From contig JWZX01003401.1 of NCBI GenBank assembly GCA_001275005.1, positions 1-64,000 on the forward strand: a DNA stretch of 64,000 bases. The letters run 5' to 3'. This document shows positions 5,094 to 59,887 of the stretch, in pieces. Origin of the DNA: Chrysochromulina tobinii (lineage: Eukaryota). Numbering within the stretch: position 1 is the stretch's first letter; each line of letters opens with the position of its first letter. The notes below the pieces were generated by a model that was given only the letters and a program-made list of their open reading frames with translations, was not told the origin of the DNA and ran no database searches. The translations under genes were made by a program, and so were the position numbers.

Positions 5094-8000
5094 CTAACCT
5101 TCTTCTTCGTCGGCACTCTTCTGGTTCGGCAGCGCTGGCGACAAGGCGGTGCGCGACGAGCAAATGGCAAGCACGGCGTCCTCGCAGCACTTGCAGATCT
5201 CCAACTTGACGGAGCGCGTCTTGCGCTGCACGAGCGAGAGTGACTCGTAGTAGTTGATCATCGCGTGGTTCTCTTGCAGCGCGCGGTTATTGGCCTCGAG
5301 CTGCGACGGGATGTAAAAATAGTCCTGAAGCGCCAGCAGCACCGAGGCGACGGCCACAGTTGCCGGAATCCAATTGCCCAACGCAATGACCCCGAGCACA
5401 GCGCCAGCAGTATTGGCGAGGAGCGATCCAACTTCAAAGATTTGTTGACGGCGGGAGATGATGGGAGCTCGACGCTCGAAAAGGGTGGCGAGGGGACGCA
5501 GGCGACATTCGACGTACGTTTCAATATCCAACTGGGTGAGTTAGGTGGAGGGGAGGGGAGGAGAGGGGAGGGGAGGAGATGGGAGGGGAGGGGAGGGGAG
5601 GGGGGTGAGGAGAGGAGGGAGGGGAGAGACATAAGGAAGGAGTTGGAGAGGTGCGGTTATGGGGTGGGGGAAGAGGAGATAGGATGTTAGTGGGGGATCT
5701 CGCACCTGAGAAGTGTAATCGTCGCGAAGCCCGAGGCCAGTGTCCTGACTCGGTTCAGACTTGCCAGCAGCAATTTCCGTGCCACCCATGGAATTCGCCG
5801 CGGCCGCCACGAGCTCGGTCGTAGAGACCTTACCATCGCCGTCCATGTCAATTGGGTGCACCTTCTTCTTCTTCTTCTTCGGCTTTGGCGGCGGCGGCTT
5901 GAGATAGAGCTTTTGCTCGACGTGGGCTCTCAATTGTATCTGAAAGTTCGTCTTAGCCGCCTCACTGGCGTGCGGCTGCATGCGCGACACGTTGTTCATC
6001 ATGAGCGCCGATCCCTTGGACACCTCAGTCGCGACCGCGTTCTTATAAATATCGCCCACCTGCGGGGAGGCAATCATGTGCTCATCAGTGCTCATCAGCA
6101 CTCATCAACGTGACGAACCACGTAGGATTGTGAGGAGGCAATCATGTACTCCTCATCAGTGCTCACAGTAGCGACGAACGCGAGGCGAGCATCCATGTTC
6201 CGCTGCTTGGGTGTTCTCGCCTCTTGGCCCTCCTCCAACACCTGAGGCGCCATCACGTCGTACACATCCGTGCGCAGTCGGTACTTATAGATCTGGTCGA
6301 CGACCTGATGCGCGGCCATCAGGCACGAGGCCCACTTTTCGCGAGGGCGCATCCGAGTGCGCAGCGTGCCGACGCCCGCCGAGAGGACGGGCAGCATCAC
6401 AACCGAGAGCCCCCACCAGGTCATACCGGCGATGACCTCGTTGGAGGCAGCTATAGGCGTTGCTTCTGAAGGCGGTGCTGGACCGCCTTCAATCTCGCCC
6501 TCGGATTCGGGTATGGGCGGGTCAGCGACACACGTAAACACCTCGCCACCAGGGCACATGAGCGACTGCAGCCGACGGAGAACTCTTCCTGAGGCTTCAG
6601 CAGCCACCTCGCCCTCTTGGCCCTCTTCGCCCTCTTCGCCGCCACCAAGTGCGGCCAGTGCCATCTCGCCAGTCTCCGCCGTGTACAAGATGGCCGCGAG
6701 GGTGGTGATGATGGCGAGGCTATAGAGGAGGAGCTGCAGACGGTCGGCAATGCGCTCAAACTTGTCGGCGTTGGCCCAGAGGGTCATATGGCGCTTCCAT
6801 GCAGTGAGCACGCAAAGCATCTCAGCCTCTCCCAAACCGAGCTCGGGGATGCCGCCACCGCCCGAGAAGCACGTCACCAGCACTGAGAGCACCTGCTCCG
6901 AGTTGTCCTCCATGAGGTCGACCGACACGATGGTGTTCTTGAGCAGCATCGGTGCGCGTTGGTTCAACTCTTTGAGCATGTGGATCTCGGGTAAGCCAAA
7001 CTGCCGCGTCCACTCAGCGGGTGAGGTCAGCTCACATAACTGTAGCAACTGAGCGGCGGGGGGCGGCGGCAGCGTCGACAGCATCCCCCGCCGCAGCGAG
7101 GTGAACCCATGTGTGACGCCGCCCGTCTTGTCGAGCATCACGATCGACTTGCCCGTTTGGATGAGTTTCTTGAGGCGCGGGAGAAAATCGCCACCCCCGT
7201 TGGCAGCGAGGTAACCAAAAGGGCCGAGCGCCGACAGGTCGGGTGCGTCGATCTCCGAGTCGAGCAGAATGTAGTGCGTTCCCGCGCCAAAGAAGGTCTT
7301 CTTATAATGGTAGCTCCACTTCTCTCGAGGTGGAATCTTGCCGTCGGGCCCGAGCATCGAGTCGTCAATTGATAACGGCAATTTCATGTCGAAGTATAAA
7401 TTCGGGTCCATGAAATCGTCTTCTTCGTAGAATTGTTCGATCAGCAATGCTTCGGGGGCATCGTCCACCCCGAGGGGAACGGCGCCCTGCTTGACCAGCT
7501 GGCACTTGTCGATGCAGCTCTGGGTAATCTCGCCTAGTCCTTCCCCATCCTGCCCCGTGAACTTCTTGAGCCGATCAAAGGAATCGATGACCACAATCGG
7601 TGGACGCGAGTCCGTCAGCTTCATCGCCGCCTCGATTAGAAGCTCCGCCGCCGGCGAGCAGCTCGAAATGCGATCGACGACCAGCCAGTTGGGCGTCTTG
7701 CTGCTGATCGCAGAAGCGTCGAGCACAGACGCGAATACGGTCACCAGTTTGGTAAACATGACCTCATTGATGATCTTCAGTGCAAACGCGTCACGCTCGC
7801 CCTCGTTCTGGACGCCTGCCCTTTCCGACTGCGCCCTGGCGTCTGTCCAGAATTCGTTGAAGGAAGGAAGTGCCACGAGCTGCGGCAGCGCGAGAGTCGA
7901 CAGCCAAGCGATCATACACAGAAAGAGAGCACCAACGCCTTGGGCGTGAGAGGCAGGGTAAGGGCAAGCAAGGCGTGTGTGCACTGCCGCGTACTCCCAT

Positions 8001-11239: not shown

Positions 11240-12508
11240 ATGCGTGCTCAAGTCCAGCAGCCTGTCGCGGCGTCGTCGTCCCGCAGTGCTGCTGCTGCCG
11301 CAACAGCGGCGGCTGTCACGGCCGCGCCACGATGGGCCGCGGCAGTCCTCGTCTCTGCGGCGCTCTCTCTGCAACCACCCTTGCCAGCGATCGCAGAGAC
11401 GACTACCGCTGGGTTTGAGGAGTTTGCCGCCGCAGGTGGCAAGATGAAAGCCGATCCGAATTGCTTCTTCACCGATTGCAAGGAGCCTACGAAGGCGTGC
11501 TTCACCAATCCTGCGTGCCTCAAAGGCATCACGTGCCTCGGCAACTGCCGTGGCGAGCAGCTGTGCGCAACCCAGTGCTTCGCACGCTTCGGGTCAGAGA
11601 AGCTCAACTCATGGCTGAGCTGCACCCTCGAAGAGAAGGAGTGCGTGAGCACGGGCGTGAAGCAAGACACGTCTAAATTCTATGCGAATGCGCCGCCAGT
11701 GGCTCCCGCGTTCAAGCCGTCGGACCTCGAGGGAAAGTGGTACAAAGTGCTCGGCTACAGCCCCAAGTACGACATGTACCCATGCCAGACAAACACCTTC
11801 ACTGCGCGCGCCGATGGTGGATTGGAAAACGACATCCTCTTCCGCGTCCCAAAGCCGGACGGCTCGGGCAGCTGGACGAACAACTTCAAGGAGACGATGG
11901 ATAACAGCAAGGGGCCACGCGGCACCGCCTCGATGGTGGTTGAGGGGAAGATGTTCGGTCTCACCTTCCATGAGGACTGGTACGTGATCGGAGTGGGCAA
12001 AGGATACCGCGTCGTTGCGTACAAGGGTGACACGCAGCAGGGTCCGTACGAAGGTGCCTTCGTCTTCACGGAGACGAAAGATGCGCTGCAAGGCAGCGCT
12101 AGCGATGCGATGAGGCTGGCCATCGACGCAGGTTGGTCCGAATCCCCACAGCACCGAATCCCCACAGCTCGCAGTTGATCCGTTTCTCATGCACGACCCA
12201 TGGACGCTCACCGTCCGTGTGCTGATGACCTCTGCTGATGACCTCTGATTGTTTCCCTCATCAGGCTCACCGTCCGTGTGCTGATCTCGCGCTCTGTGCT
12301 GTTCACAGACATTCGGCGCGGGGGGCTCGACCCCTCGCAGATGGCGCCCATCGACAACAGCTGCCCCGACGACACGATCGCCGCTGGAGTTTCGTCTACA
12401 GAAGCCTCCAAGGAGAAGCTCGAGTGGAAGGACGTCTTCGAACTGACGGAATGGTTCCGTCCGGGCACCCTCAAGAAAGACACTTCGTTCGACCCCAACA
12501 AAATGTAG
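11240..12508 (+). CDS. VDL: Violaxanthin de-epoxidase-like protein, probably plastid/lumen targeted; intron 12132-12308
   Basis: Cys-rich N-domain (CFFTDC..C..C..CLGNC..C..CFARFG..SC..CV) followed by a lipocalin region (GKWYKVLGYSPKYDMYPCQTNTF, FHEDWYV, YEGAFVF) and a terminal DNSC. The splice joins AIDA-D-IRRGGLDP. Ala-rich, hydrophobic presequence. VDL versus VDR subtype not resolved. Confidence 0.8.
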
Positions 12509-13380: not shown

Positions 13381-15876
13381 TCACATCGCACTCTCCGCTC
13401 CCGCCATCTCATTCTCCTTGGTCGTCGCTTTCACCTCCGCGATCAGTCGGCGCGTTGCCGCGCCCACGTCCTGGAGGAGAGCCGGCGCCGCCTCGCGCAG
13501 CTGCCCGAGGACCGAGCTCGCTCCCTTGGCCCTCTCGCTCGCCTCCCTCGCCAAGGTCTCAGAGGCGGCTCGCGCATGCTCGCCCGCGCCGCGCGCCCAG
13601 CTGCCCACCACTGCACCCGTCGACCTGGCGGCGGAGACGAATGAACTGGCGACGCTACAGTCGTCGCTGGCCGCCTCGGCGGCTGCCTCGCACGCCTCCG
13701 CACGCGCCAACGCCTGGCGAAGGCTGCGCGCGAGCAACCCTTTCTCGTCCGCAGCCGAACGCTCGGCCACCCGAAGTGCGTCGTCCCGCTCCCTTAGCTC
13801 GCGCTCCCTTAGCTCTGCAAGGGCTTGCGCCTGAATGAGCTGCCCTCGCACCTCTGCCAGTGCGTTCTCGTAGCGCGCAGTCAGCATCGCCTTCTCATGC
13901 CCCGAGCTTCCCCAACTGCTGCCGTGCGAGCTCCAGCTGCCGGCTGGCTGATAGGTCAGTGCCGGTGGCCCAGCGCACAGCGTGAGGCGCCATCGCGGCG
14001 CCCAGCGCGAGCAGGAGCACCAGCAACGTGCGTGCGGCGAGCTTGGGCGGCACACCGAGCGCTAGGCACACCTCCGCCGCCGTTGATCGCAAGCCTGCCG
14101 CCCGCCGTTGAATCCCGTGCACCCCGCGCGCGGCGCGCGAAACCACCGCTTTGGCAGCCAGCGCCGCTGCGGTCGTGGAGCGACGCGAGAGGGGCCGTGA
14201 AGCTCGCCAGATCTCATACCTATTGAGGGAGGCAATCAGATGCTATCAGAGGCAATTAATTAGAGGCAATCAGGGCCGTGAGCTCGCCAGATCTCGTACT
14301 TGGAGCGCGCGGCCATTTTAAGGTCGTGCCACTGGCCCGACCACATGAGCAGGTTGCGCAGCGCGGGCAGGTCCGAGTGCGCCGGCTCTGAGGAGAGCGC
14401 GTCGCCCCATGGGTACTTGCGTAGGTAGACCTGATGCCCGGCGTCGAGAAATGCGTCGGTCGAGCCGATCACGGCCCACGGCTGCTGGTATTCACACTTA
14501 TCCTGCGCCTCCATGGAGCGGATGACACCCTGGTCGAAGGCGTACGCCTCGATGCCCTCCCGCTGCAGCGTCTCGCGCAGCTGCTGCTTAAACTCCTCCT
14601 TCTCCTTGGTGGTCATCGTGTCGGACTTGGCGATGATCGGCACGATGTTCACCTTCTTGTGCAGCGCGCGCATGAAGGCGATGTCCATGTGCTTGAGACG
14701 ATGCGGCGCGATGAAGTACAGGCACACGTGTACGAGCGGGTCCTGCAGCCGCAGTCGCTCTGCGTCGCGAGGCGACCACGAAGATTCCGCTCGCAGCTGG
14801 CGCTCGAAGAGGCCGTCAATGTACTGCTCGACGACGTCAAACGACTCCTGGGCGTCGAGCGACTCGCCGTAGCCGGGCGTGTCGACGAGGGTGACCTGCA
14901 GCTCGTGCTTGCCCACCGTGATCGAGAAGGGGTCGAAGGCCTTGATGCACACCGTCGCGCTCGTGAGCGCGCGCCGGCTTCGTCGACTGCGTCGCTCAAT
15001 GGTGTCGTCGTCGTCGTCGGCGCCGTCGTCGTCGGCGCCACCCGGGCCGCCTGCCGGCTCGTCGGAGGCGCGGCGCATCTGCTTGAGTTGGATGTGCACT
15101 GCGTCGCACTCGCTCTGCAGGATGCTCGCCTCGAGCTGTCGCTCCGCCGCCGCCACGAAGTCGGCCTGGTCGGCCGCTCGCTTCATCTCGAGTCGCCTCC
15201 CGCGGCAGCACTCGCGCAGTGAGCGCAGCTCGTTGCGCTGGCGCTCGTCGGCGGCCGAGAGCTCCTTGAGCTTGGCGCCGAGCGCCGCCATCGACTGGCC
15301 CATCTGCTCGATCTCCGCCTGCTTGGCACTCGCCCTTGTGTACTGCGCCTTCTCGACCGCCGCCTGCAGCTCGCGCTCGGCCGCGTTGCGCTGCGCGCCC
15401 GCCTCGGCGAGCTGGCGGCGCGTCTCGATCTCGATGGCCGTCTCCTTGCGCTCGAAGAGGGCAAAAGAGGCCTCGTCGTCTTTGAATGACTGGAAGAAGG
15501 ATTCGAGCAGCGTCGTCTTGCCGAGGCCTGCCTCGCCCACCACCATCAGGTTGAAGGACTCCATCGCAGGCTCACGCAGCGTCTTGGGTTCGGTGATGCG
15601 ACCATGGTACGGATCGTGGTGCGGCGTGCTGCCGCTGCGCGGGGAGGCGACGTTCGCCGAGTAAGCCGCCTTCATCGTGCGGTACTCGATGCCGATCGAG
15701 CCATCAGGCACCAGATCGTCACCGCCCTGCCCAGTCTCACCGCCGCCGGTAGTGGTGGACGCCAAGTCCCATTCATGATCCGCTTCCCATGTCTCGAGCG
15801 GGAGTCCTGAGGCACCCGAGGCACCCGAGAGGTGGCGGAACGAGTCGGACAGCTGCTCGCTGCCTCTGGATTCCAT
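13381..15876 (-). CDS. Septin with UVR-like coiled-coil insertion and C-terminal TM + coiled coil; intron 14220-14299; apparent frameshift at 13900-13903
   Basis: G1 GEAGLGKTT, G3 DTPGYG, G4 AKSD, plus the septin motifs VHVCLYFI..HRLKHMDI and RKYPWG..HSDLPALR. The intron restores SK-YEIWRASRP in frame. Confidence 0.85.
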
Positions 15877-16211
15877 GCTGTCGCCGCTTTTCCCACGAAA
15901 GGCTGGACGGAGGGTTGATTACTTCTGCCAGTTCTGCAGCTTTGCAAAGTTCGATCGGCGAAGAACGCTTCGGACCCCACAGGGCCTCCTTCGCATGGAC
16001 GGAGGTGTGACCGATGGGGTTGAAATCGTACCAGGGTCCACACAATGTAGATATGGCGAGGCAACCACCTAACCCGTTAATTTCAGTCAGAACTGGAACA
16101 TCGGATCTACGCGAATGTCAGTTATTGTGCGTCGTGTGGTTGTGACCTACTAGTACTAACCTCCAGCTACTCTGCAAGCAGATCAATCCCGTCGCTCGCG
16201 TATCGCTCGCG

Positions 16212-32086: not shown

Positions 32087-32514
32087 GTCCTTCGCCAAAG
32101 CTTTCCTTTGGCGCTCGTGCAGGCGCTCCGTGTCCGTCAGGGGCGAGGGTAAAGCTCCTCCAGTTTGACGTTCAAGAGAAACCCAAAATGCCGTGCATGC
32201 ATGTTGAGCCCGGACAAACTTTCCCAAATCAAGGAACAGTCTTTGCCTGTGAAGAATTCGTTGCGATCGTGCCCACTCAGAACCAATTGCTCTGAACAGT
32301 TGACTTGACTCGACTTCGCGCCGTTTGCGTTACACATCGCGAACATTAAATGTAGAATGAAGCTGTTTGTGTGAACGTGTACGTGGTGGTGTGTGAACGT
32401 TAACACGACAGACGCGACAACCGGTGCTGCGGCACTGTTACTGCCCGCTCGTGTGCTGTGTCTCAAGAAGGTGTAGGCTACCATTAACAGCCAGTTCACA
32501 CAGCAGAAGGCAAA

Positions 32515-34734
32515 ATGGCCGCCCACGTCATCACGTCGGCCATCGAGATCAACGACCTGCGCGTCGACTGCATTGTGGGCATTCGCGAGCGCGAACAGCG
32601 CTCTTTGCAGCCCCTCATCATTGACGCGCGGCTCTCGCTGCCGCTCGACGGCCCTGCCAACACTGGTGACCTCACCACAAGCGTCAACTATTCGGCGATC
32701 TCAAAGCAGCTCGCGTTTGTCGCCGCGCACGGCCAATGGGGACTGCTTGAGAGTCTTGCGAGCGCGCTCGCCAGCCACATCCTGCTGCCGCCAGCCGGTG
32801 CCGAGGGCCGCGCGCAGGTGCGCGCCGTCGAGGTTCGCATCCGCAAGCCTGATGCACTCAAGGGACTTGCCGTGCCAGCAGTGCGCCTCTGCCGCACGGC
32901 TCCCGAGGACGGCGCGGGCGGCAACATTCAGGTACGCGAGGTGTGCGAGGGTGTGCGGCTCGACGTGCTGGAGGAGAGCCCCCTGGGTGCTGCGTATCGG
33001 CTGCGGCTCGCACCGAGCGCGTGCGTGCCGCTGCCCAACGACGACCTCGCCGCCCACGTCCTCGCCGGTGGCGCCTCCTTGAGCGACGGCAGCAAGCTCA
33101 AGGAGGGAGACGTGCTGCCACGTGGTTCGGGCGCTGTGCTGCACGCTGGCTCCGAGGGCCTCGCGCTGCTCCTCGTCGGGCGCCGGCTGCCGTCGGGCGC
33201 CCTCGGAGACACCAGCCTCACGACTGCGTACATCGCTCTCGGGAGTAATCTCGGAGATCGGGCAGCTCACGCAACGTCGGCGCTGCGCGAGCTGCGCACG
33301 CGCTGCGGCGAGGTGACGCGCGTCTCGCAGCTCTACGTCACCGCACCGCAGCACGTGATCGAGCAGCCCGACTTTCTCAACGCCGCGTGCGAGCTGCGCA
33401 CCGCCCTCTCGCCCGCCGCGCTCCTCGTCGCACTCAAGGGCATCGAGCGCGATCTCGGACGCTCCTCGGGCGGGGTGCGCTACGGGCCGCGCGTCATCGA
33501 CCTTGACCTGCTCCTGTACGGCGACCGCGTCGTCGAGTGCGACACGAGCGAGGGCCCCCTGAGCGTCCCTCACAAGCTCCTGCTCCAACGGACTTTTGTT
33601 CTCGCGCCTCTGTGCGACGTGGCGCCGGCCGTGCGGCATCCTCTCACAGGACGCTCGATCAGGCTCGAGTTCACGCGGCTATGCACGGCGGAGGCGACCA
33701 AGGGCGAGCGGCTGCCGCAGCGCGTGCTCCCCGTGCGCGCCGATGTGATCTGGCCACTGGGTGCCAGGACGTACGTCATGGCCATTCTGAATTTGACGCC
33801 CGACTCCTTCTCAGATGGAGGCCGTGCGCTGGACACAGACGTGCACGCGGCAGTGGCCGAGGCGAAGGCGCTCGTCGAGGCGGGAGCGGATGTGGTCGAT
33901 CTCGGCGCCGAATCCACTCGACCGGGCGCTGAGCGCGTCACTGAGCACGAGGAGATGCGTCGACTGCTGCCGGTGATTCGTGCCATACGGGACGCCGGGA
34001 AGGACGACGCGGCCGCAACGGCCGGCGCGGCGGGAGGAGCAGCAGGTGGCAGCGCTGGCGGCTGGGGCAAGCGGGTTGTGCTCTCGGTCGACACGACACG
34101 CGCGAGTGTGGCGGCGGCGGCGGTGGCGGCCGGAGCAGACATCATCAACGACATCTCGGGAGGCACGTTCGATGAAGGGATGGTCAAGACGGTGGCGACG
34201 CTCGGGGTGCCATACATCGCAATGCACACGCGCGGCACGCCAAAGACGATGCGCTCACTCGCCTCCTATCCCGGCGGTCAAGTCACAAGCATCGTGTGCG
34301 ACGAGCTGGAGCGTGTTGTGCGGGCGGCGCACGCTGCCGGCCTTGCGCCTTGGAGCTTGATCGCTGACCCGGGCATTGGATTCGCTAAGGATCCGCAGCA
34401 GTCGATGACGTTGCTGCACGAGCTGCCCGCCTTCGTTCAGCGCATCGTTGGCGCGCAGCCGGGCGGCGGCGGCGGCGGCGGCGGCGGCTGCTGTGCCTCG
34501 CTCGTGGGGGCCTCTCGGAAAGGATTCATTGGACAGGTACTCAGTCAACCCGACCCGCTCCAGCGCCAGTGGGGCAACGCCGCCACGACGGTCGCGGCCA
34601 CAGTCGCCGGGGTCGACATCGTCCGCGTGCACGAGGTGAGCGAGATGCGGCAGGTGGCGATGATGGCCGATGCTATCCACCGCCGCGCAGGGGGCAGCGG
34701 CGGCGCTGCTCCAACCCCGCTGGCAAAGTTGTAA
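32515..34734 (+). CDS. FOL1: Trifunctional folate enzyme DHNA (FolB) + cupin-like insert + HPPK (FolK) + DHPS (FolP)
   Basis: DHNA: VGIRERE, SVNY, LLESLA, IRKP. HPPK: YIALGSNLGDR, DFLNA, RYGPRVIDLDLLLY. DHPS: ILNLTPDSFSDGG, GAESTRPG, INDISGG, DPGIGFAK, GASRK, VRVHEV. Confidence 0.95.
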   Translation: MAAHVITSAIEINDLRVDCIVGIREREQRSLQPLIIDARLSLPLDGPANTGDLTTSVNYSAISKQLAFVAAHGQWGLLESLASALASHILLPPAGAEGRAQVRAVEVRIRKPDALKGLAVPAVRLCRTAPEDGAGGNIQVREVCEGVRLDVLEESPLGAAYRLRLAPSACVPLPNDDLAAHVLAGGASLSDGSKLKEGDVLPRGSGAVLHAGSEGLALLLVGRRLPSGALGDTSLTTAYIALGSNLGDRAAHATSALRELRTRCGEVTRVSQLYVTAPQHVIEQPDFLNAACELRTALSPAALLVALKGIERDLGRSSGGVRYGPRVIDLDLLLYGDRVVECDTSEGPLSVPHKLLLQRTFVLAPLCDVAPAVRHPLTGRSIRLEFTRLCTAEATKGERLPQRVLPVRADVIWPLGARTYVMAILNLTPDSFSDGGRALDTDVHAAVAEAKALVEAGADVVDLGAESTRPGAERVTEHEEMRRLLPVIRAIRDAGKDDAAATAGAAGGAAGGSAGGWGKRVVLSVDTTRASVAAAAVAAGADIINDISGGTFDEGMVKTVATLGVPYIAMHTRGTPKTMRSLASYPGGQVTSIVCDELERVVRAAHAAGLAPWSLIADPGIGFAKDPQQSMTLLHELPAFVQRIVGAQPGGGGGGGGGCCASLVGASRKGFIGQVLSQPDPLQRQWGNAATTVAATVAGVDIVRVHEVSEMRQVAMMADAIHRRAGGSGGAAPTPLAKL

Positions 34735-43622: not shown

Positions 43623-43673
43623 TCGCGCGAAAGGCAGGGGGTTCTGCTTGCTCGCCACACTGGGCGCGCGACC

Positions 43674-46600
43674 ATGGCGTCGGCAGCCTCCGGCCCGCAC
43701 GACCAGATCTCGGAGCTCTCGCTGTACGATGCGGGGATTGTGAGCCTTGCAGAGCTTTCGGACTTGCCGCGCATGACGGCGCTTCGCTCGCTCAACCTGC
43801 ACTGCAATCGGATCGAGGCCATCTCCAACCTCGAGTCACTCGGCGGCCTGACGTACCTCAACCTATCATCCAACCACATCGAGGCAATGACCAACCTTCA
43901 CGGGCTTGTGCGTCTGCAGACGCTCGACCTCTCATGCAACCGAGTGCGCATCGTCGACGGCCTGGCGACGCTGCGTTCGCTCCGCCGGTTGCTGCTCGCA
44001 TACAACCGGATCACCTCACTCGCGGGCCTCGTGCAGTGCCACGGCGGCCAGCTCGCGCACTTCGAAGCGTACGGGAATCGTATCGCGCTCATACGCGAGG
44101 CCGAATACCTGCGCGGGCTTCCGATGCTCGCCGAAGTAGTACTGCGCCGGCACGGGCAAGACAATCCCGTCTGCCGCGAGCCGGGCTACCGCGAAAAGGT
44201 GCTCACGCTGCTGCCCGGCCTGCAGACGCTCGACGACGAGTCGACCACCGGCACCGCGCCCGTGCCCGACCGGCCCGGCGCCGCATACGCATGCGCGCTC
44301 GAGGCGCTCAGTCAACCAATGCCCTCTGCTTCCGCGGCGGGTGCGGGCGGCGCAGGCACCGCCACAGCGCACTCTGGAAGAGCGACTTCTGGCAGTCAAG
44401 GGCCCGGCAGCGCGGCAACGATGGCCCCGCCGCCGGTGGGCAGCGCCGCCGCCGTGTGCCTCGCTGCAGCTGCCGCAAGTGCGGCGCCAGGCGGCAGCGG
44501 CGGTGGTGCTGGTGGAGCTCTGCCGCTGCCCGCGGCCGCCGCCGCTGCCACCACCGCAGTGCCTCCAACAGTGTCGCCATCTGATGCGCTACATATAGTC
44601 GCTGAGGCGCTTCGACCCATCGCCACGCCGCACATCGACGCGACACTCCAGGCGGTCCAGTCGCGACGCCAGGCGGCCGCACGGGTGGCGGCGGCTGCAG
44701 CCACCGCGCATGCACCCTTAGTCGGGGCTCGACACGCCGGTGCCGTCCCCACCCCGCTGACCGCGGCGCCGCCCCCGCCGGCAGAGCGACGCCAGGACGC
44801 GGTGGCGTGGGAGTACGATGCGTCCGCGAGCGCCGCCCCTCCCCGCGGCACACTGTACGACAACACCAAGCGCGGCCCGCTGCCGGGGCTCGCGCCGCCA
44901 GCACCGACCGCCGCCACCGCCGCTGCTGCAGCACCGCCGCGGCAACCGGAGCAGCAGCAGCAGCAGCAGCAGCCGGCACAGCCGCCGCCGCTCCCGCAGC
45001 TGCCTCAGCAGCAGTGGCAAGCGCCCAACCCAGCCAACCCAGCCTATGCAGCCACGGCGCAGCATGTGCAATGGCAGGCAGTGCCGCGTGACCCGAGCGT
45101 CGTACCGAGCGTCCGGGGCGTGGGGCACGATGACGATCTCAATCCCGGCGTGGGCGCCTTCGGTCGAGTCTCCCCCGCCGCAGCCCATGAGCTGATGAGC
45201 TCACTGGAGCACGAGCTGCGGCTCGAGAGGATCGAATCCACGCTCGGCATTCACGCCCTCACGAGCGCGACCACCGCCGCTCTCCAAAGGGCCCATAGCA
45301 GTGTGAACGGGGAGTGTGAACGCGCCGGCTCACGCGCCAGCTCACGCGCCAGCCGAGCTGGCGAGGACAGAGCAGGCGAAGGCGAAGGCGAAGGCGATGG
45401 ACGCGGAGGTGCCGGTAAGGGTGACGGAGGTAGCCGCAACGGTGGCTTCGGTGGTGGTGGCTTCGGTGGTGGCAGCAGAAAGCCGGGTGTTCGCTCCATA
45501 GGCGAGGCGCGGCGGCGTGGCGCTGGTCCGTCGCGTGCACACGAGAGTGCTGGATCACACCGTAGGCTCGCGACGGTCGCACCTCGGGGGATGGGTCCGT
45601 CGAAACGTTGGCGGAAGGCTCTCGCGAGGCAGCCCGAGGAGGCGGAGGAGGCGGAGGAGGCGGGCGGGCGGTATACCGAGGGGGGCGGGCGGAATACCGA
45701 GGGACCTCGGTGTACCGAGGTGGAGGATCGCGACGAGGACGAGGACGAAGAGGGCTACTACGACGAGGGCGTCGAGGAGGAGGACGAGGAGGGCTTCGGC
45801 GTCAGCTTCGACGATGAGGCCGTCGACGACTATGAGAAGGGCGACGACTATGAGGAGGGCGAGGAGGAGGGCGAGGAGGAGTACTATGAGGAGGAAGAGA
45901 GCGAGGCGGAGACCGGGGATCCAGGATACGGCCTGCGGCATCCAGACGCGTATGACGACGAGGAGCAAGAGGAGGCGGAGGCGGAGGCGGAGGCAGAGGC
46001 GAACGAACGTGCAGATGATGACCTCGAACGAAGACGTGCGGCCAACGAGGCACTCGATCGACGCATCGGGCTGCGCGCTCACACAGACCGCGCGCGCGCT
46101 GCATGCGGCGGCGCGCACCGGCGCGGGACTTCCACGTCTGCACTCGGTGGGGCGCGCCGCCTTCAGGGCGAGGCCTCCGCGACGGCTGCGATGTCAGCGT
46201 CGGCATTAGGACGACGCCGAACAGCGGATGCTCACCACGGCGCGCTTACCATGGCGCGCCGAACAGCGGATGCGACCCGGCGTGTAACGGCCACCGCTGC
46301 CCTCGAAGCACCCAGAGGAGTAGGCGGAGGAGGCGGCGGAGGCGGCGGAGGAGGAGGCGGAGGAGGAGGAGGAGGAGGAGGAGGAGGAGGCGCAGGCGGC
46401 GGCGGAGGCGGCGGCGGCGGCGGCGGCGGCGGCGGCAGTGGCGGCGGCAGTGGCGGCGGCAGTGGCGGCGGTGCACATCGGAAGGTTCCCCCTGACGAAC
46501 CTCCCGAGGACAGGTCGCCTGGCCGTTACGATGGCGGCAGCTATGATGAGGCAGAACTCGACGACGACGACGACGACGATGATGACGACGACGACGACGA

Positions 46601-49246
46601 CGACGGTGGTGGTGGTGGTGACGCCCGCGGTGGCGACGTGGCTGCTGATCGCGGCTTCGTAGGCGGCGTGCAGCCGATCAAGCGGCCACGATCTTCTCTA
46701 CGGCCGCGTGTGGCCTCCAAGGCTTCAAAGAGCCTCGATGACGAGGTGAGAGAAGCCAGGGCCGCGGCCCTGATGACCTCTGATTGCATCTGATTGCATC
46801 TGATTGCGTCCCCCATCAGGTGAGAGAAGCCAGGGCCGCGGCCAGAGCCAGACTCCTCGCCGCGGGGGCGCCGCCGCCGCCAGCAACGGCGCACGGCGTG
46901 TTGGGCGCCCAACGCGGCGCGCAGCCTCTGACCGCGGCGACGCTCGCGACGCACACGAACGAGACGATCCGACAAGAGGTTGCGCGATTGCGTGCCGCGC
47001 TCGCGGTGACGGAGGCTGACGTGAAACGGCTCGCATCGCGCGCCGTATCGAGCGAGGCGGCGCGTGCCGAGGCTGAGGCGGCGCGCGAGCGAGCGGCGGC
47101 AGCCCTCGATCTGGAGAGATCCCAACGGCAAGAGGCCACGACGGCGCTCGAGGCGGCGCGCGCCGAGCAACAGAAGGCGATGGCGCAGCAGCAGGCGGCG
47201 ATGGCGCAGGCGGCACGTGCGGAGGCGGCGCGTGCGGAGGCGGCGGCGCGGGCAGAGCGGGCGGAGATGGACGCAGCCACGTGTCGACGGGAACTTGACC
47301 GGGCCGCTCATGCCGCCACGCTGGCCTCGAGGCGCGAGGCGCATGCCCGAGATGCTCTCGCGCAGCTCGGCGACCTCTCGTCGCGCAGGCTGCATGAGGC
47401 GGGTGCCGCCTCCGCCGAAGAGGCCGCGAGGCACGCGGCCATCGCGGCCGAGCTCGCCGCGGCCCAGACGGAGCTTGCGGCCGCGCGACCCGCGCTCATG
47501 AGCTTCGAGGCCTCGGCGCAGCGCGCGATGCAGACCGAAGCGCGGCTCTCTGCGGAGCTCAGAGATCTCCGAGCCCAGCTCGAGGCGGCCCAGAAGGATG
47601 CGGCGCAGCATGCGGCGGCGCACACGGCGGCGGCGCACGCCGAGGCGCAGCGTGAGGCACAGCTCCAATCGCGACGAAGCCTCGAAGAGACCTTACGGGC
47701 GAGGGAGGCGAAGCTTGAGGCGAAGCTCGAGGCGGCCGAGACGCGCGCAGAGGTGGCCGAGCCGCGCCCCCATTGAGTGCCTCTTGAGTGCCTCTAATTG
47801 CCTCCCTCATCATGTGGCCGAGCCGCGCCCCCATTGATTGCCTCTTGAGTGCCACTGAGTGCCACTGAGTGCCTCCCTCTTCAGGTCGCCGAGGCGCGCG
47901 CCGAGGCCGAGGCAGCCCGTGCGGAGGCGCTCGGCAGCGTCGCTGGTTACCGCGCACCGTTGCCGCCCGCGCCTGCGGCGCCGGCGAGCGACGCGGGCGG
48001 CGCACCCGCGCAACCCCTGACCCTCGCCGCGCTGCGGGCGCAGCTCGTGAGCGCCGTCCAGAAAGAGGTGGCGGCGCGCGGGGCGGCGCAGGAGATGGCC
48101 GAGCTGCTCCGCGAGCAGCAAACGAAGCTCTCGAGCCTTGCCGAAGGGCGCCGGCAGGCGCAGGCGGAGGCGGCGGCGGCGCGCGAGCAGGCGGGGGCGG
48201 ACTTGCGGGCAGCCCTCGAGCGTCAACGGCAGGTAGAGGCGCAGCATGCCTCCGATCTCAGCGCATCTCGGGCCATGGCGACGCGTGAGCAGCTCAAGGC
48301 CGCCCAGGCCGCCGAGGAGTTGGAGCAGGCGCTCGAGGCGGCGGCGCGCGACAAGGAGGCGCTTGCGACGGCGCATCGCGAGGAGCTGCGCGTCAAGGAG
48401 CTGATCCTCGCTGACCTCTCGTCGCAGCTCGTGCAAGCTCGTCAGGCGCTCAGCACTGCGCAGGAGGGCGCGAAAGGCGCGAGTGCGGCGCGTGACGTGG
48501 CAGAGCGCGAGACGGCGGCATGCCGAGAGGCGCGCGAGGCGCTGCGCGCGAGCGAGGCCAAACGCGAGCGGCTCGAGACGGCGCTTGAGGAGCTCGAGGC
48601 GGCGCGCGCCGAAGCGACGGCCGACGCGGAACATGCGTGGCAGCAGGTAACCCACAAGGATTGCATGCTGAGAGTGCCACTGATTGCCTCTGATGACGGA
48701 ACATGCGTGGCAGCAGGTAACCCACAAGGATTGCATGCTGAGAGTGCCACTGATTGCCTCTGATGACCGCTCACGAGTGCGAATGACTTCCCCCTTCAGG
48801 TGTCCCACAAGGAAGGCATGCTCGCCTTCGTCGAGCGCGAGGTGCATCAAGTCAAGGTGCTCTTCGCCGACAAGGAGCAGCAGCTGCAGGCGGAGCTGCG
48901 CGAGCGCTCGGGCATGCTCGAGGCCGAGGCGCGCCAGGCACGCGCCGCAACGGCCGAGGCTGAGAAGGCGACGGAGCGCGAGCGGCAGCGTGCCGACGAG
49001 GCCGAGCGCCAAAAGGCAGCCTCGGAGGCGAAGGCGCTGCTCGTGGCGGCCGAGAAGGAAGCCGCCGCCGAGCAGCTGAGCGCCAGGGTGGCTGAGCTGG
49101 CCAGCCTGCGCGCCGACAAGGAACGACTTGAGGGTGAGATGCGCCTTGTACTACGCGCGATGGATCAGCAGAAGACAGTGGCGCAGCGCAACATGGCGCA
49201 GCTGTCGCGCATCTACTCCGACTGGCACGAAGCAGTCAATGCTTAA
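43674..49246 (+). CDS. LRRCC1: LRR and coiled-coil centrosomal protein (LRRCC1/VFL1-like); introns 46746-46819, 47753-47884, 48647-48799
   Basis: N-terminal LRRs LNLHCNRI, LNLSSNHI and LDLSCNRV with the cap DNPVCREPGYR..LPGLQTLD, as in LRRCC1. Long C-terminal coiled coil. All three GT-AG introns are phase 0 and join consecutive ORFs. Confidence 0.85.
46315..46470 (+). repeat. GGC/GGA trinucleotide tract encoding poly-Gly
   Basis: Long Gly-codon run inside LRRCC1 exon 1. Confidence 0.9.
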
Positions 49247-50888: not shown

Positions 50889-52953
50889 ATGACGGAAGCG
50901 GACTCCGGACGAGCGTCGGAACCGTCCGACGCCTGCGCTCCGATTCCCGCGCCGGGCGCGCCGGCGTCCACCAAATGGACGCCTCCAGCGATTCAGGCGC
51001 GAAAGCGAAAGCTTACAAGGATCTTCTGGCTGCTCGCAACCGTCCAGATTATCATCAACCTGGATGGCGGCGCGGTGCCCGCCGGCCTGCTGCACATCGG
51101 CGCGACCTTCGACATGGGAACGTCCGAGCTCGGGCTCCTTGCGATGCTTGTCTACCAGGGCGTTGCGCTCGGCTGCCTCACGGTTGGCCCGGCGACGCGC
51201 TACATGTCGCCGCTGCGCTTTACGCAGTTGACGATGGCTCTGAACATTGCATGCACTTGCTTATTCGGAGCGGCTCAGTCGATGGGAATGCTCCTCGCCT
51301 TCCGCTTGCTGATCGGCTTCCTGCAGGCGATGCCCGCCGTGTACTTCCCCGTGTGGGTCGACGAGTTCGCACCCGCGGATGCTGTGACGTTCTGGATGGC
51401 TCTCATAAACGCGGGAGGACCGCTCGGCATCACCATCGGCTACGTCTTCTCGGGCGCGATGACGAGCGGCGAGCTGGACCCGACCTCGGAGGCCTTCGTC
51501 CCGTGCGCCACCTCCGACGTCAGCTGTGCGTGGCGGGTCCCTTTCTACCTGCAGTCCGGGGCGCTCGTGATGCTCTTCTTCGGCATGCTGCTCATCCCGA
51601 AGAGCCTCTTCGACCTGGGACAGGACAAGCCGCCTGCCGAGACCAAGGAGCCGGCAAACGCGCCAGTGGCTGCGCCAGGTCAGTCGCCGCGGCGCGAGTC
51701 GGCCGGCATGCCATCGCCGTCGCCCGACCGATCGCCAGGCAATTCGCCCAAGACAACGCCAGACCTCGCGCCCAAGACAACGCCCATGACAAGCGTTGAT
51801 CAGTCCGAGGCGCCCACCTCGTTGTCTGTCGCGGAGGTGGACGAAGAGAGGGGGGACGCGCCCGCCGGGACCACGCCCAAGACAACGCCCAAGAAGCGCA
51901 ACCTCATCTGTGAGCTGTTCGGCAACGGCCCGTACATTTTCACCGTCATGGGACTCTCATCGCTCTTCTTCGTCGTCACAGGGGTGCAGGTGTGAATTAC
52001 CTCGTACATCGTGGTGTTACGCGCTGCATGCGAGTGCTCACCACGACGCCCTCCTCTCCCCACAGGTGTGGGTGACCTCGTACATCGTGGTCGTCATCGG
52101 GAAGAGCCAGGCGGAGGTCACACCCGCGTTTGGCGTCACCTCCATCACCGCCCCCATCATCGGTGTGATCGCCGGCGGCATCTTCATTGACAAGATTGGC
52201 GGCTACAAGGGCGAGGCGGCGATGGCCCTCACGCTCAAGATTTGCTTCGCCTTCGCGTGCTTGGCGGCAACTTTTGCGATCACCTGCGCGTACGTACCCA
52301 AAGCCGTCGCCGACCAGGGCGTTAGTTGCATCACAAATACCAGCTCGCCCTTCTACGTGGCGCCCGACGACGCCCGCGCCACAGCCGGCTTCTGGTGGTG
52401 CATCGGGCTGATCTTTATCACGCTCGTCTTCGGCGGTGCCATCATCCCTGCGGCCATGGGCTGCCTTGTGTCGGCGGTCCCGCCCGACATGCGCAGCGTC
52501 GGATCGGCCTTGTCGATGTTCTGCTTCCAACAGTTTGGGTACGCTTTCTCGCCCCTCGCGTCTGCGCTCATCGGCGACTTGGCCACGTTTAGCCGTGAGG
52601 ACATCATCGACTGCCTCGCCCAAACTTGCGCGGGGGGCGTCCAGACAGCTGACTGCCCCTCCAGCGCCGTCATCGATTTCGAGATGAAGAACGCGCAGAC
52701 GAGGGCATCGCTCGAGCTGTGCTTCCAAGTAGTAATGCTGTGCGGCTTGCTAGGCGTCGCGTGCTTCTTCGCCTCGTGGCGCTTTGCCGTCGCTCATGCC
52801 AATCGTACCAGCGGAGAGGTACAGACCGCCAAGCCCAAGGTGGCCAACGTCAAGGTGGTGGAGGTGCGCACGGCAGAGGGCGAGATCGATATCTCTGAGA
52901 TATCGCCGAGGATCGATCCTAACGGACTCACTGTCATCGGCGACAAGATCTAG
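50889..52953 (+). CDS. MFS transporter (Spinster-like); intron 51990-52065
   Basis: INLDGGAVPA, FRLLIGF, YFPVWVDEFAP, WRVPF and FFVVTGVQ|VWVTSY, with about 12 TM segments. Start could be upstream (50769). Confidence 0.85.
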
Positions 52954-53061: not shown

Positions 53062-54438
53062 ATGATGATGGACTTGACCACAGCCATTGACACGATCAGC
53101 AAAAAGCGCAGGCTCGATCCGAGTGTGCAGAAGATTGACGAGCTCCTTGAGTTGCTCGAGGGCTGGGAAACACGTGTCCGCGGCGGCTCTGACGAGGCCG
53201 TCACCAAAGAGTTTGCTGCACTGCGCGAGCAGGTCCAGAGGCAGGAGACCAAGCAAGTGATCGCGGCGCACCACAAGGATGTGGTGTCAGCCGCGACGAA
53301 GCTGGGTAAGGTTGCAGATAAGGTCTACCCAAACTTGGAGCATGCAGTGCCACACTGCAGCTTCGCGCCAGAGCTCGTCTACCGAGCCATCTACGAGCAT
53401 CTTCTCGTCTCGGGCCGATTCGAGGCGGCGCGCGTCTTCAGCGCCGAGGCGGAGCTAGTTGACCAACACGCGCTCACTGAAGAAATGCAGCTTATGTACG
53501 CGGCGTGCCGCGAGCTCGAGGCGGGAGGGACGGAACTCGTGAGTGCCTGGCTCCAAGAGCACGGCCACGAGCTGCGCGACCATGGCGCCATGCTCGAACT
53601 TGAGGTACTCCAGCTGCGCTTCACGCAGCGCGTGCTGAGCGGCGACACAGCCGGGGCGCTGCAGACGCTCCGCGACTTCTCCACGCGCCAGCTGTTGCGG
53701 GCAGGTGCCTCGGACGACGGCTCGGGCCCTCGACCCGGAGTATGGAGCGCGCCTCGGATGGCTGGAACTAAGGGGGTAGCTCAGACCTACCCCCTTACCG
53801 GAACGTCCTTCGACGGTGCGCGCTGGCCGGTGCAGTCCTCTCAGCTGACGGCCGAAGCCCGGATGCGCAAGCTCGCGGGTGCGCTCGCGTACGCCCATCA
53901 GCCCGCGAGCTCGCCGTATGCTGAGATGCTCAATGAGCCAGCCCAGCGAGCTCAACTCCGAGATCTCTTCACGAAGGAGTACCTGCTGCGGCTGCGTCGG
54001 CCAGCGAGCTCATCACTCGAGACGCTAGTGGACGCGGGCACGCTCGCTCTGCCCAAGCTCGCAAAGCTTGCCAGCGTGCTCAAGGACAAGTACGCGCGCA
54101 TCTGCCTCGAGGGCGACACGCTGCCCCTCGAGATCGACCTTGGGCCACGCTTTGTACGCCACTCGGTCTTCACGTGCCCTATCTCCAAGGTGCGTTGATT
54201 GCCACTGATGATCTGCCTTGCATGCAATTGCTCACTACGGCGCTTCAAACCTTTGACGTGCCCTATCTCCAAGGAGGCTGGCACGCCCGACAATCCGCCG
54301 ATGCTGCTCCTGTGCGGCCACGTGCTCGGGCTCGCCTCGATCACCAAGCTCGCGCGCGGCTCGCGCTCGGCCCGGTTCAAATGCCCCTACTGCCCTGTCG
54401 AGAGCTCGATGGACGATGCCAAGGCGCTCGATCTGTGA
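53062..54438 (+). CDS. RMND5: CTLH/GID complex RING subunit RMND5/Gid2; intron 54190-54273
   Basis: LisH/CTLH-like region (AIYEHLLVSGRFEAA). LPLEIDLG..HSVFTCPISK|E..NPPMLLLCGHVL..KL..FKCPYCP is the Gid2-type RING. Confidence 0.9.
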
Positions 54439-57870: not shown

Positions 57871-59887
57871 TTCCCACCGTCGGCAACACAGAAGATGACT
57901 CGTAATCAAGTTCAGTGGTGCTGCTGCTGCTGTGAAACAAACAAACGACTGTCGCGTCTGTCGTGTTAACGCACAAACGCGCACACTCTCCGGGCCCCCA
58001 AGCACGAGGGCCTCTATCGCAATGGACGGAGGTGTGGCCATTACCCGTTAATCGGCAAGGGGTGGATTCAAAACAACCGGCGCCTTCCTCGACGCGGCGG
58101 CGAGATTCCGCGATCCAGAGATTGAGGGCCGCAAGATGAAGGAGGTCGCGCGCCTCTTCAAGTGAATGGCTCGCCGCTTCGTTGGTGACACATTGGAGCA
58201 GCGCCTTGCCAGCGGTTTCAGGCTCGAGGGTGGTGCCAGGGCTCCTCGGCTGGCTGAGAACCTCTGACAGATCCGACAGGGCTGGAGCGAGTTTTTGCTC
58301 GAGACGGCGCCGTTGCTCGTCGAGCCTTTCAAGCAGAGGTGGATGGACGCGACTTGACGAAACTTGTCGAGGTGGATGGACGCCGGCCTTCGAACGAACC
58401 GGGCTGCCTCCCAGCCGTGGTATCCCTTCCGGCCCGGCCAGACGAACCGGGCTGCCTCCCAGCCGTGGTATCCCTCCCGGCCTACGAGCGAGCGGCGCCG
58501 ACCCAGACGCCGGTCGCGCTCGAAGTCGCTTCTGCCCCTCGTCCGGCTGATGTAACGGCTGATGTAACGGCTGATGTAACGGCTGATGTAACGGCTGATG
58601 TAACGGCTGATGTAACGGCTGATGTAACGGCTGATGTAACGGCTGATGGCCGGCCTCGCCAGCGCTCTCGTCCGAGTCGGAGTCCGTCGCCGAGTCGGCG
58701 CCTGCCGCCGAGTATGCGCCTGCCGCCGAGCCGCAGTCTATGGAGCCCGCAAGGGCGCCTGAATCGGCGCCGAGCCGCAGTCTATGCAACCATGACATAG
58801 AGCGGCGAGCTTGAACGGACGCATGGAGCTCGCCACTAGAGCGCTGCTGCGTCAGCTCGTGCTTAGTCGCCGTTCGCTCTGCATTGTTCTTGAAGAGCAG
58901 GGCGATCTTGATCCCTGCGCTGCGCTGCTGAGCTGTACTGCAAGTAGATCGCGAGATGGGAGGGGTTTCGTCACGTCGGGTTTCGTCACGTCGGAGGCAG
59001 CTGCATGTGGATGGCGAGATGGCACTTGATGAGGTTGGAGCCGCAGGACCTGCACGTGGAACTCCAAAACCATCGCCCGGTTCGGGATGACGCTCGTCTA
59101 TGTCGTCCTCGCCGTGCCCCCCAACTTCATCGTCCTCCCCTCTACCTCCTCGTCCCCGCCCCTGCTCTCGGCATTTCTCATCGGCATCGACAGCACCCCC
59201 CGTGAGGAGAAGGCTCGGTGGTGCAGGGGCGCTGTGGTTTGCCAGCTCGGCATAGCTGCGCTGCAAAGGCAAGTGCCCGCGCTGAGCATGCGCATGGCGC
59301 TGAAGGCAATCGTAGGCGATTCTGCGAGAGGCGATCATCGGAGCCGACAACGGGCGCGGAATAGACCGAGAGCGCGATGCCAATGGATACGTAGCCTGAG
59401 GAGGGGCGGCGACGAGAGCGGCAACAATGGCCCGTGCCTGGGTGGAGGCGGCTGTTGTTGCTGCCAATTCTGGAACTCGAGATGGAAGTGCGCTGCTGAT
59501 CACCGGCGAGGTCAAGTGGACCACCTCGCCATTCGGAGCATGTGACGAGTCGCTGTACACGCGGACTTCACCTTGGAAACTGAGCCCCGACTTGCTAGGC
59601 CGCCACCCAAATGCTCGAGGGTCGGCATTCGAACGCCAGGGTTTGCGTGTCCGAAAGGGCTGGGGCAGGATCAATGATGGCTTCGGCTTATGAATATGCG
59701 AGTTGCTGATTGAGAGCGTTTGCTGTACTCGCGCAGCTGATTGATCACTTGGTTGCAGGCCATCGAGTGAGACAGCGGTTGCCTTGGAGCTGGTGACGCG
59801 GCGTGATGGTCGCGAGTCGGAGCTGGCCCGTCGCGATAAAGTGTCGCCGAGCTGTCGATGCAGCGGCCCTTCACTGTGCGGGTTCAT
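57788..59887 (-). CDS. Low-complexity hypothetical protein
   Basis: Long ORF containing the in-frame (HQPL)n repeat; no recognisable domain. The 3' end overlaps the phosphatase start in another frame, so the true stop is uncertain. Confidence 0.4.
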   Translation of the reverse strand: MNPHSEGPLHRQLGDTLSRRASSDSRPSRRVTSSKATAVSLDGLQPSDQSAARVQQTLSISNSHIHKPKPSLILPQPFRTRKPWRSNADPRAFGWRPSKSGLSFQGEVRVYSDSSHAPNGEVVHLTSPVISSALPSRVPELAATTAASTQARAIVAALVAAPPQATYPLASRSRSIPRPLSAPMIASRRIAYDCLQRHAHAQRGHLPLQRSYAELANHSAPAPPSLLLTGGAVDADEKCREQGRGRGGRGEDDEVGGHGEDDIDERHPEPGDGFGVPRAGPAAPTSSSAISPSTCSCLRRDETRRDETPPISRSTCSTAQQRSAGIKIALLFKNNAERTATKHELTQQRSSGELHASVQARRSMSWLHRLRLGADSGALAGSIDCGSAAGAYSAAGADSATDSDSDESAGEAGHQPLHQPLHQPLHQPLHQPLHQPLHQPLHQPLHQPDEGQKRLRARPASGSAPLARRPGGIPRLGGSPVRLAGPEGIPRLGGSPVRSKAGVHPPRQVSSSRVHPPLLERLDEQRRRLEQKLAPALSDLSEVLSQPRSPGTTLEPETAGKALLQCVTNEAASHSLEEARDLLHLAALNLWIAESRRRVEEGAGCFESTPCRLTGNGHTSVHCDRGPRAWGPGECARLCVNTTDATVVCLFHSSSSTTELDYESSSVLPTVGNAVGMFCCCCCHHGGYSTAASFAPAER
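58544..58648. repeat. 12-nt perfect minisatellite x~8.7 (HQPL)
   Basis: cggctgatgtaa repeated. Confidence 0.95.

What the first reader, a model, noticed from the sequence alone, without database searches (positions are those of the whole stretch)
46746..46843. Intron-generating insertion family: long exon duplication + decamer filler + shared acceptor (type example)
Seen: the intron begins gtgagagaagccagggccgcggcc, an exact 24-nt copy of the start of the next exon (46820-46843). It continues with ~10-nt units (ctgatgacct, ctgattgcat, ctgattgcat, ctgattgcgt) and ends cccccatcag. The same layout recurs at 14220-14299, 47753-47884, 48647-48799 and, more decayed, 51990-52065; the filler and acceptor alone appear at 6060-6166. 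Established: Introner elements create introns but are typically TIR DNA transposons with short target-site duplications. Inference: here a 16-28 nt target duplication supplies the GT donor, while a TIR-less, variable-copy CTGATTGCCT-type filler supplies CTRAY-like branch points and the AG, so the insertion splices out cleanly. The variable repeat number suggests iterative templated synthesis at a staggered break. This may be an undescribed intron-gain mechanism.
Basis: partly seen in the sequence, partly recalled or inferred. Interest (0 to 1): 0.9.

Follow-up and report, generated by a model that had tools for sequence, protein, structure and literature searches.

The report
Introns built from neighbours' half-introns
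In a small freshwater alga, hundreds of short introns consist of a copy of 11-55 bases of the gene's own flanking exon joined to half of another intron, and they likely arise when a repair or replication polymerase briefly copies a neighbouring intron, which would be a route to new introns without a transposon.

Summary
Intron 46746-46819 starts with an exact 24-nt copy of the next exon; an RNA contig skips it exactly. The host is Chrysochromulina tobinii-like. In 130 metagenome loci plus the window, 91 of 215 family acceptors carry such a copy (controls 1/215, 0/645). New here: (1) a second acceptor family without decamers, and a mirror class (donor half plus copy of the upstream exon's end), all parts of one ~70-nt intron; (2) the inserted half resembles a neighbouring intron far more than chance (30 vs 7.1) and both junctions show microhomology; (3) gain is shown for intron 51990-52065, absent in sister lineages, and a site at 48857 differs among near-identical strains. 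Best reading, inferred: local template switching copies half an unspliced intron and re-copies target DNA. Main rival: priming on intron RNA ends. No enzyme, master element or raw reads were found. This scan noted the same footprint before on another piece of this genome (e1-2577349). Ten literature searches found no description.

The parts
46746..46819 (+). type intron, 74 nt, phase 0, GT-AG
   Evidence: open frame after removal; skipped in RNA contig of X14
46746..46769 (+). left copy of the next exon's first 24 nt; supplies the donor
   Evidence: 24 of 24 identical
46770..46819 (+). inserted 3' intron half: decamer units plus acceptor (family 1)
   Evidence: sequence; family of 215 acceptors
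46820..46843 (+). right (exonic) copy, start of next exon
47753..47884 (+). family-1 intron, decayed 18-nt copy, internal 61-62-nt tandem unit
   Evidence: an X15 contig lacks one unit; not seen spliced
48647..48799 (+). family-1 intron, 23-nt copy (19 identical), internal 70-nt tandem duplication
   Evidence: skipped in X14
48856..48857 (+). empty site (AAG|GTG): other strains have a family acceptor like that of intron 48647-48799 directly before 48857
   Evidence: 7 of 15 listed cluster members begin MS(V/L)NDFP(H/Y)Q-VLFADKE
51990..52065 (+). family-2 intron in an MFS transporter gene: 26-nt copy plus single core and pyrimidine-rich acceptor; shown to be a gain
   Evidence: skipped in X14, X17; absent in sister lineages
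54190..54273 (+). mirror class: carries the donor half; acceptor is an exact 18-nt copy (54256-54273) of the upstream exon's end (54172-54189)
   Evidence: frame continuous after removal; no RNA joint seen
14220..14299 (-). family-1 intron in a septin-domain gene, 27-28-nt copy with one indel
   Evidence: not tested with RNA
6060..6166 (-). family-1-like intron without a recognisable long copy
   Evidence: frame continuous after removal; not tested with RNA
12206..12285 (+). family-1 insert (12227-12264) with exact 21-nt duplication, lying inside an older intron (12132-12308) of the violaxanthin de-epoxidase gene, not at a splice junction
43671..49246 (+). host gene: N-terminal leucine-rich repeats, C-terminal coiled coil, three introns
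   Evidence: orthologue P0217 reads through all three sites

Best explanation
These are recently gained spliceosomal introns, each made of a duplicated stretch of the host exon joined to half of another intron, and they likely form by local template switching. Inferred steps: a growing DNA end inside an exon pairs through 2-4 matching bases with the inside of a nearby unspliced intron (DNA or nascent pre-mRNA; not resolved), copies 20-80 nt through that intron's acceptor and a few bases of its next exon (typically AG|GT-R), then re-pairs with its own template 11-55 nt upstream at a matching G|GT-R. The target between the two switch points is copied twice, and its first bases become the donor. 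The mirror event copies a donor half and re-copies the end of the upstream exon, which becomes the acceptor. Because the return switch uses the splice-junction sequence itself, the product tends to be a clean intron; selection is inferred to keep products of at least ~60 nt and remove the rest from exons. Each new intron is a template for the next, so introns cluster. Afterwards slippage and unequal exchange between the two copies change the number of decamers and units. Shown: anatomy, removal in RNA contigs (3 introns), gain (1 intron well, 4 more weakly), neighbour resemblance, microhomology. Inferred: the copying reaction, its template and its enzyme.
For: Copy begins exactly at the junction, 11-55 nt, in 91 of 215 family-1 and 28 of 60 family-2 acceptors. 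Downstream exons start GT/GC in 188 of 215, consensus GT-R-C-G. Mirror class: 8 introns carry one conserved donor half that holds both family-1 units and the family-2 core; 4 have a scored copy of the upstream exon end, a fifth by eye. The best 3' match of an intron lies in the same locus 32.2 times vs 5.9 expected of 267, and 30.0 vs 7.1 (maximum 20.9 in 3000 permutations) among 209 culture-derived introns; pair rate 6 of 50 below 500 nt vs 143 of 13585 between loci. Neighbour pairs share >=4 nt of downstream exon in 6 of 13 vs 11% of all pairs, p=0.002; microhomology at the copy-insert junction 2.5 vs 1.6 nt in a corrected control, n=64, p=7e-5; copy and insert lengths anticorrelate, rho -0.49, n=109. 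One intron was copied whole, with its exon-derived head, 2.9 kb within a gene (L038). An insert with duplication sits inside an older intron. Gain.
Against: Only 13 neighbour pairs carry the downstream-exon test, and most introns have no identifiable donor. Units are almost all sense-oriented (216 of 259, calibration 123 of 142; neighbours under 1 kb on the same strand 229 of 238), and internal breaks cluster exactly at the AG (19 of 59, in 11 loci) with at most 1 nt of microhomology: both fit an RNA end better than blind DNA switching. Inverted or intergenic debris, expected from a DNA process, is scarce. No intron-less allele was seen as DNA sequence; absence is read from protein calls. Neighbour resemblance could partly come from later gene conversion between existing introns.
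Confidence: 0.55

Rival explanations
1. The template is excised intron RNA: its 3' end (the AG) is joined to or primed on target DNA, by target-primed reverse transcription or by half a reverse-splicing reaction at an R-loop, copied part-way, and the gap is filled so that the target is duplicated.
For: Fixed 3' end, variable 5' end, variable long duplication and 5' microhomology are the anatomy of target-primed insertions (established knowledge, recalled). Sense bias and gene-level clustering; 19 of 59 internal breaks exactly at AG. An R-loop reverse-splicing model is in print for Micromonas (PMC4540971, passages).
Against: Does not predict the mirror class with a fixed 5' end, nor shared downstream-exon bases between neighbour pairs. 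No reverse transcriptase among 44 of 191 long frames scanned in the loci (weak).
Confidence: 0.25
2. Old introns were remodelled, not gained: spliced cDNA or gene conversion overwrote one half of existing introns with flanking exon sequence and homogenised the other half.
For: 37 of 91 left copies follow an earlier acceptor, so turnover inside introns is common; P0122 has a family-1-like filler at the site where the window has a family-2 core, which may be replacement.
Against: Intron 51990-52065 is absent in two lineages at 91-95% identity and in a 57% outgroup; exons after acceptors start GT/GC even where no copy is seen (103 of 124); duplications also occur away from junctions (12206-12285; L020, L103). 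No control set of non-family introns was available for the GT bias.
Confidence: 0.1
3. A conventional non-autonomous introner: one ~70-nt master element is moved by a transposase or retroelement and makes unusually long target-site duplications.
For: All parts overlap into one ~70-nt intron and one near-complete copy has a 6-nt flanking repeat (L010); a marine Chrysochromulina introner of 70 nt with 4-nt duplication is published (PMC9860276, passages). An earlier agent read it this way (e1-2577349).
Against: Published introner duplications are fixed and 3-9 nt; here 11-55 nt. Either end of the insert can be missing; private variants are shared by neighbours; no shared body upstream of the fillers; no stable hairpin (z -0.7 to -1.9).
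Confidence: 0.08
4. Assembly artefact from short repeats.
For: Raw reads were not seen; the left copy at 46746 was not shown bridged in a second DNA run.
Against: Same layout in many independent assemblies; copies diverge by point changes; sister alleles read into the same copy at protein level; the 26-nt repeat is shorter than the 31-nt assembly word.
Confidence: 0.02

Closest known systems
Introners / introner-like elements with a splice site taken from the target duplication (Symbiodinium, Polarella classes 4/5 and 6/8/10; Chrysochromulina sp. MAG family 5)
   Same: Repeated intron family; one splice site carried, the other recruited from the duplicated target; genic, sense-biased (bioRxiv 10.1101/2020.10.14.339549 section 3 part 1; PMC9860276 passages).
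   Different: Their duplications are fixed at 3-9 nt and elements are end-to-end similar, often with inverted repeats; here 11-55 nt, only half an intron is shared, both mirror forms occur, donors are local. C. tobinii is listed with 0 introner families in the 2025 survey (PMC12130899 supplement).
Intron gain at staggered double-strand breaks in Daphnia pulex
   Same: New ~78-nt introns with a direct repeat shared with the adjacent exon, secondary internal repeats, parallel gains (PMC4202315 passages).
   Different: Repeats 4-12 nt; inserts AT-rich and mostly of unknown source; here the insert is a recognisable half of another, often neighbouring, intron.
Intron gain by tandem genomic duplication of an AGGT-containing exon segment
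   Same: Duplicated exon supplies splice signals with no change to the mRNA (PMC3443670 passages).
   Different: There the intron is only duplicated exon; here foreign intron sequence brings branch point and one splice site.
Intron transposition / reverse splicing (Oikopleura, Micromonas, fungal ILEs)
   Same: Introns seed new introns (PMC4122922, PMC4540971 passages).
   Different: Whole introns without long target duplication are expected; here halves with long duplications dominate.

Membership tests
TIR DNA-transposon introner | terminal inverted repeats | tested here: not met
   A 6-nt CTGATG/CATCAG match exists in the type insert but the 5' end of inserts varies and folding is no better than shuffles
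TIR DNA-transposon introner | short target duplication of fixed length | tested here: not met
   11-55 nt in 91 introns; 10-46 nt in 28
Introner (broad sense) | repeated sequence family that forms spliceable introns | tested here: met
   RNA contigs
Introner (broad sense) | recent gain at previously intron-less positions | tested here: met
   one intron with outgroups; weaker for four more
Introner (broad sense) | end-to-end similar copies of one mobile element | tested here: not met
   only a 5' or a 3' half is shared; the other end is host exon
Non-LTR retrotransposon / SINE insertion | fixed 3' end, variable 5' truncation, variable duplication | tested here: met
   holds for the common class, not for the mirror class
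Non-LTR retrotransposon / SINE insertion | autonomous partner with reverse transcriptase sharing the 3' tail; poly(A) or simple-repeat tail at the 3' end | tested here: inconclusive
   no shared upstream body in 720 kb, no RT in 44 of 191 long frames, 3' end is a splice acceptor; no whole genome was held
Tandem genomic duplication intron gain | intron consists only of duplicated exon | tested here: not met
   median insert of non-exon sequence 51 nt
Staggered-break repair with filler DNA | direct repeat of flanking exon plus filler, microhomology at junctions | tested here: met
Staggered-break repair with filler DNA | dependence on break-repair enzymes | not testable with these tools
   needs genetics or mutation-accumulation lines

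The most novel reading that the evidence does not exclude
A transposon-free, self-propagating route of intron gain: introns seed new introns in their neighbourhood by template switching, the splice-junction sequence doubling as the microhomology that closes the event, so that the products are spliceable by construction; this has built most of the present introns of an intron-poor alga and is still running in natural populations, invisible to introner screens that need end-to-end similarity.
Probability: 0.4. Interest if true: 0.92.

Novelty: new variant of a known kind. Interest (0 to 1): 0.78.

Why it matters
Where new introns come from is a long-standing question; most large recent gains are credited to transposons, and the filler of break-repair introns is mostly untraced. 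Here the source of the inserted sequence can be traced, often to a neighbour, both junctions keep their footprints, and alleles with and without introns exist among close relatives of a cultured alga with a public genome. That makes the mechanism directly testable by strain comparison, and it points to a class of intron gain that similarity-based screens miss.

Tried and rejected
No whole genome was held and loci could not be extended, so all counts rest on the window plus 130 loci chosen by a family-1 pattern; family-1 counts are therefore not a genome frequency. Viral contigs: one match in an unrelated AT-rich context and none for a filler array. No intron-less homologous site among the loci. 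Protein search for longer homologues of the exon after the type intron found nothing (weak). No Rfam match in the window. No significant hairpin: a MITE reading was dropped. No sign that intron copies drift towards better donors: 21 of 310 mismatches at positions 2-6 vs 26 of 496 at 7-14, p=0.44. My first microhomology control ignored chance extension; the corrected one gives a smaller but still significant excess. A window-only shuffle (9 real vs 0-2) is confounded by coding repeats and is not used. The first pair-count test of neighbour resemblance was borderline (20 observed, permutation maximum 21); the best-hit statistic is the one relied on. Rows dropped: four chance matches (L089, L094, L099, L131) were in the 215 and removed from then on; four doubtful family-2 rows likewise; duplicate loci were removed. 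Read-through proteins on contigs under about 3 kb (P0164, P0173, P0175, P0188 and others) may be transcripts and were not counted as intron-less alleles. The tree is the quick method; the careful search did not finish.

Full report
Observation. The type intron is as described: an exact 26-nt direct repeat (AG plus 24 nt) at 46744 and 46818 brackets three to four decamers and the acceptor. Removing it and the introns at 47753-47884 and 48647-48799 gives one reading frame for a leucine-rich-repeat, coiled-coil protein. A contig of RNA run X14 skips exactly these 74 nt with 72 nt on the shorter side, another skips 48647-48799 (1 of 4 RNA runs), and X14 and X17 skip 51990-52065 (2 of 3 RNA runs). 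Contigs cannot separate splicing from an intron-less allele, and raw reads were not available. The violaxanthin de-epoxidase in the window is 100% identical over 246 residues to the Chrysochromulina tobinii protein; that species has about one intron per gene (PMC4580454, passages), and the window holds many long frames without introns.

Scale. No genome was held. A 20-nt acceptor pattern gave 137 stretches in metagenome contigs, about 2900 estimated in the collection, 130 stored. Among 215 non-redundant terminal acceptors in these loci and the window, 91 have a copy of the next exon's start anchored at the junction (score >=10), against 1 of 215 with sequence from further downstream and 0 of 645 with swapped exons. 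Copies are 11-55 nt (median about 23), 43 of 91 perfect by my count; 37 of 91 follow an earlier acceptor. The exon after the acceptor begins GT or GC in 85 of 91 with and 103 of 124 without a scored copy, consensus GT-R-C-G, that is, it looks like a donor. I had no set of non-family introns as a control for this bias.

More than one filler. A search for close repeats without decamers showed a second family with one 25-nt core and a pyrimidine-rich CCCACAG acceptor; 28 of 60 have the same kind of copy against 1 of 60 controls. Intron 51990-52065 belongs here. A third, mirror class of 8 introns carries a conserved donor half that contains both family-1 decamers and the family-2 core, and takes its acceptor from a copy of the upstream exon's end: scored in 4, seen by eye in a fifth, only 6 nt or unclear in the rest; window 54190-54273 has an exact 18-nt copy. 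The pieces overlap into one intron of about 70 nt. Inference: the 'filler' is half of an intron.

Where the half comes from. Neighbouring introns share private variants. The best 3'-anchored match lies in the same locus 32.2 times against 5.9 expected (267 introns), and 30.0 against 7.1 (maximum 20.9 in 3000 permutations) among 209 introns from culture-derived loci; the pair rate is 6 of 50 under 500 nt, 8 of 204 at 0.5-4 kb on the same strand, 3 of 60 on opposite strands at 4-21 kb, and 143 of 13585 between loci. A simpler pair count was borderline (20 against a permutation maximum of 21). In L038, a gene with about 20 such introns, one intron was copied whole, including its exon-derived head, to a site 2.9 kb away. 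Thirteen neighbour pairs share at least 4 nt of downstream exon in 6 cases against 11% of all pairs (p=0.002), which suggests an unspliced template read past the AG. The copy-insert junction has 2.5 nt of microhomology against 1.6 in a corrected control (n=64, p=7e-5). Copy and insert lengths anticorrelate (rho -0.49, n=109) around a total of 78 nt. In the de-epoxidase gene an insert with an exact 21-nt duplication lies inside an older intron, 12132-12308, whose position seems shared with a relative at 86% identity, so the event does not need a splice junction.

Gain. Metagenome gene calls in the protein collection are unspliced: P0146 on a 78-kb contig reads into intron 51990. Proteins of two lineages at 91-95% identity read straight through the site on contigs of 6-15 kb (P0123, P0124, P0177, P0180, P0181, P0183), as does a 57% outgroup on 7-kb contigs (P0126, P0193), whereas the window's own group (96-99%) reads into the intron, most with the copy intact. 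A quick tree needs one change for the intron (careful search unfinished). P0122 reads into a shorter copy followed by a family-1-like frame at the same site, a parallel gain or a replacement. In the host gene of the type intron, 7 of 15 listed members of the last-exon cluster begin with a translated family acceptor directly before 48857, where the window has no intron; it matches the neighbouring acceptor at 6 of 8 residues, as does only 1 of 275 others; a 57-nt deletion would look the same. A distant orthologue, P0217 (41-51% identity), is one frame on a 3452-nt contig across all three intron sites, though it aligns poorly at 46746. All of this is read from proteins, not DNA.

After insertion. 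Strains differ in decamer and unit number at shared introns, so the variable filler needs no iterative synthesis at birth. No drift towards stronger donors was found.

Mechanism. The best fit, inferred, is microhomology-driven template switching to a nearby unspliced intron and back to a point upstream; the return uses the junction sequence, which explains the donor-like target. Against it: nearly all units are sense-oriented (216 of 259; 229 of 238 close neighbours on one strand), and internal breaks cluster exactly at the AG (19 of 59, 11 loci, some probably of common descent), which favours an RNA end. Nascent pre-mRNA as template would reconcile most of this. No master element, reverse transcriptase (44 of 191 long frames, best five families shown for each), viral source or RNA family was found; these are weak negatives on about 1% of a genome.

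Comparison with print. Published introners have fixed duplications of 3-9 nt (PMC9860276, passages and supplement rows; bioRxiv 10.1101/2020.10.14.339549, abstract and section 3 part 1). The 2025 survey (PMC12130899, passages, section 6, supplements 1-12; files 13-14 not searched) lists C. tobinii with 0 families; an Emiliania family there has 10-nt terminal direct repeats. The sequence of the marine Chrysochromulina family 5 is in a figure I could not see, and the 2022 supplement was cut when stored, so kinship with it is open. Daphnia neointrons have 4-12-nt repeats and mostly untraced filler (PMC4202315, passages). Tandem duplication, intron transposition and break repair are reviewed in PMC3443670 and PMC3296678 (passages); reverse-splicing models in PMC4540971 and PMC4122922 (passages). 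Ten searches found no description of this layout; the library lacks most subscription papers. The anatomy of target-primed retro-insertion is recalled, not from a call.

Verdict. Real, widespread in this lineage, spliced where tested, recently gained where tested; works like break-repair or tandem-duplication intron gain with a traceable intron template; not a member of the TIR-introner kind. New variant of a known kind, interest 0.78.

Noticed in passing
window 20384, 20511, 39979, 49386 (+): A dispersed 21-nt motif within a ~70-nt repeat next to (CAAGT)n/(ACTTG)n arrays, four copies in the window but none in the other loci searched; the (ACTTG)n array at 43578 is very high-copy in DNA run X2.
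   Followed up: partly
L038:2980-10820: One gene with repeated AAA-type motifs holds about 20 family introns in 8 kb, while many genes have none; counts per 2 kb are over-dispersed (variance/mean 2.2).
   Followed up: partly
window 12138-12168 and proteins P0002, P0003: The 5' part of the old de-epoxidase intron carries a tandem unit that is expanded to different lengths in other strains.
   Followed up: no
window 1836-1903, 4923-5066, 18519-18617, 32040-32127, 58394-58475: Close direct repeats of 13-34 nt without family sequence; the genome seems prone to short local duplications in general.
   Followed up: no
window 32488-34734 (+): Single frame joining dihydroneopterin aldolase, HPPK and pterin-binding (DHPS-like) domains, a trifunctional folate enzyme.
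   Followed up: no
window 14260-15918 (-): Septin domain preceded by an AAA-type P-loop region in one frame.
   Followed up: no
L033:2246-5542 (-): A 1099-aa algal frame ending in a SLATT_1 two-transmembrane domain, a family better known from bacterial defence loci (association recalled).
   Followed up: no
protein P0205 versus window 43671-49246: The public C. tobinii model covers only the last 272 residues of what reads here as one ~1850-aa gene once the family introns are removed; these introns may break gene models.
   Followed up: partly
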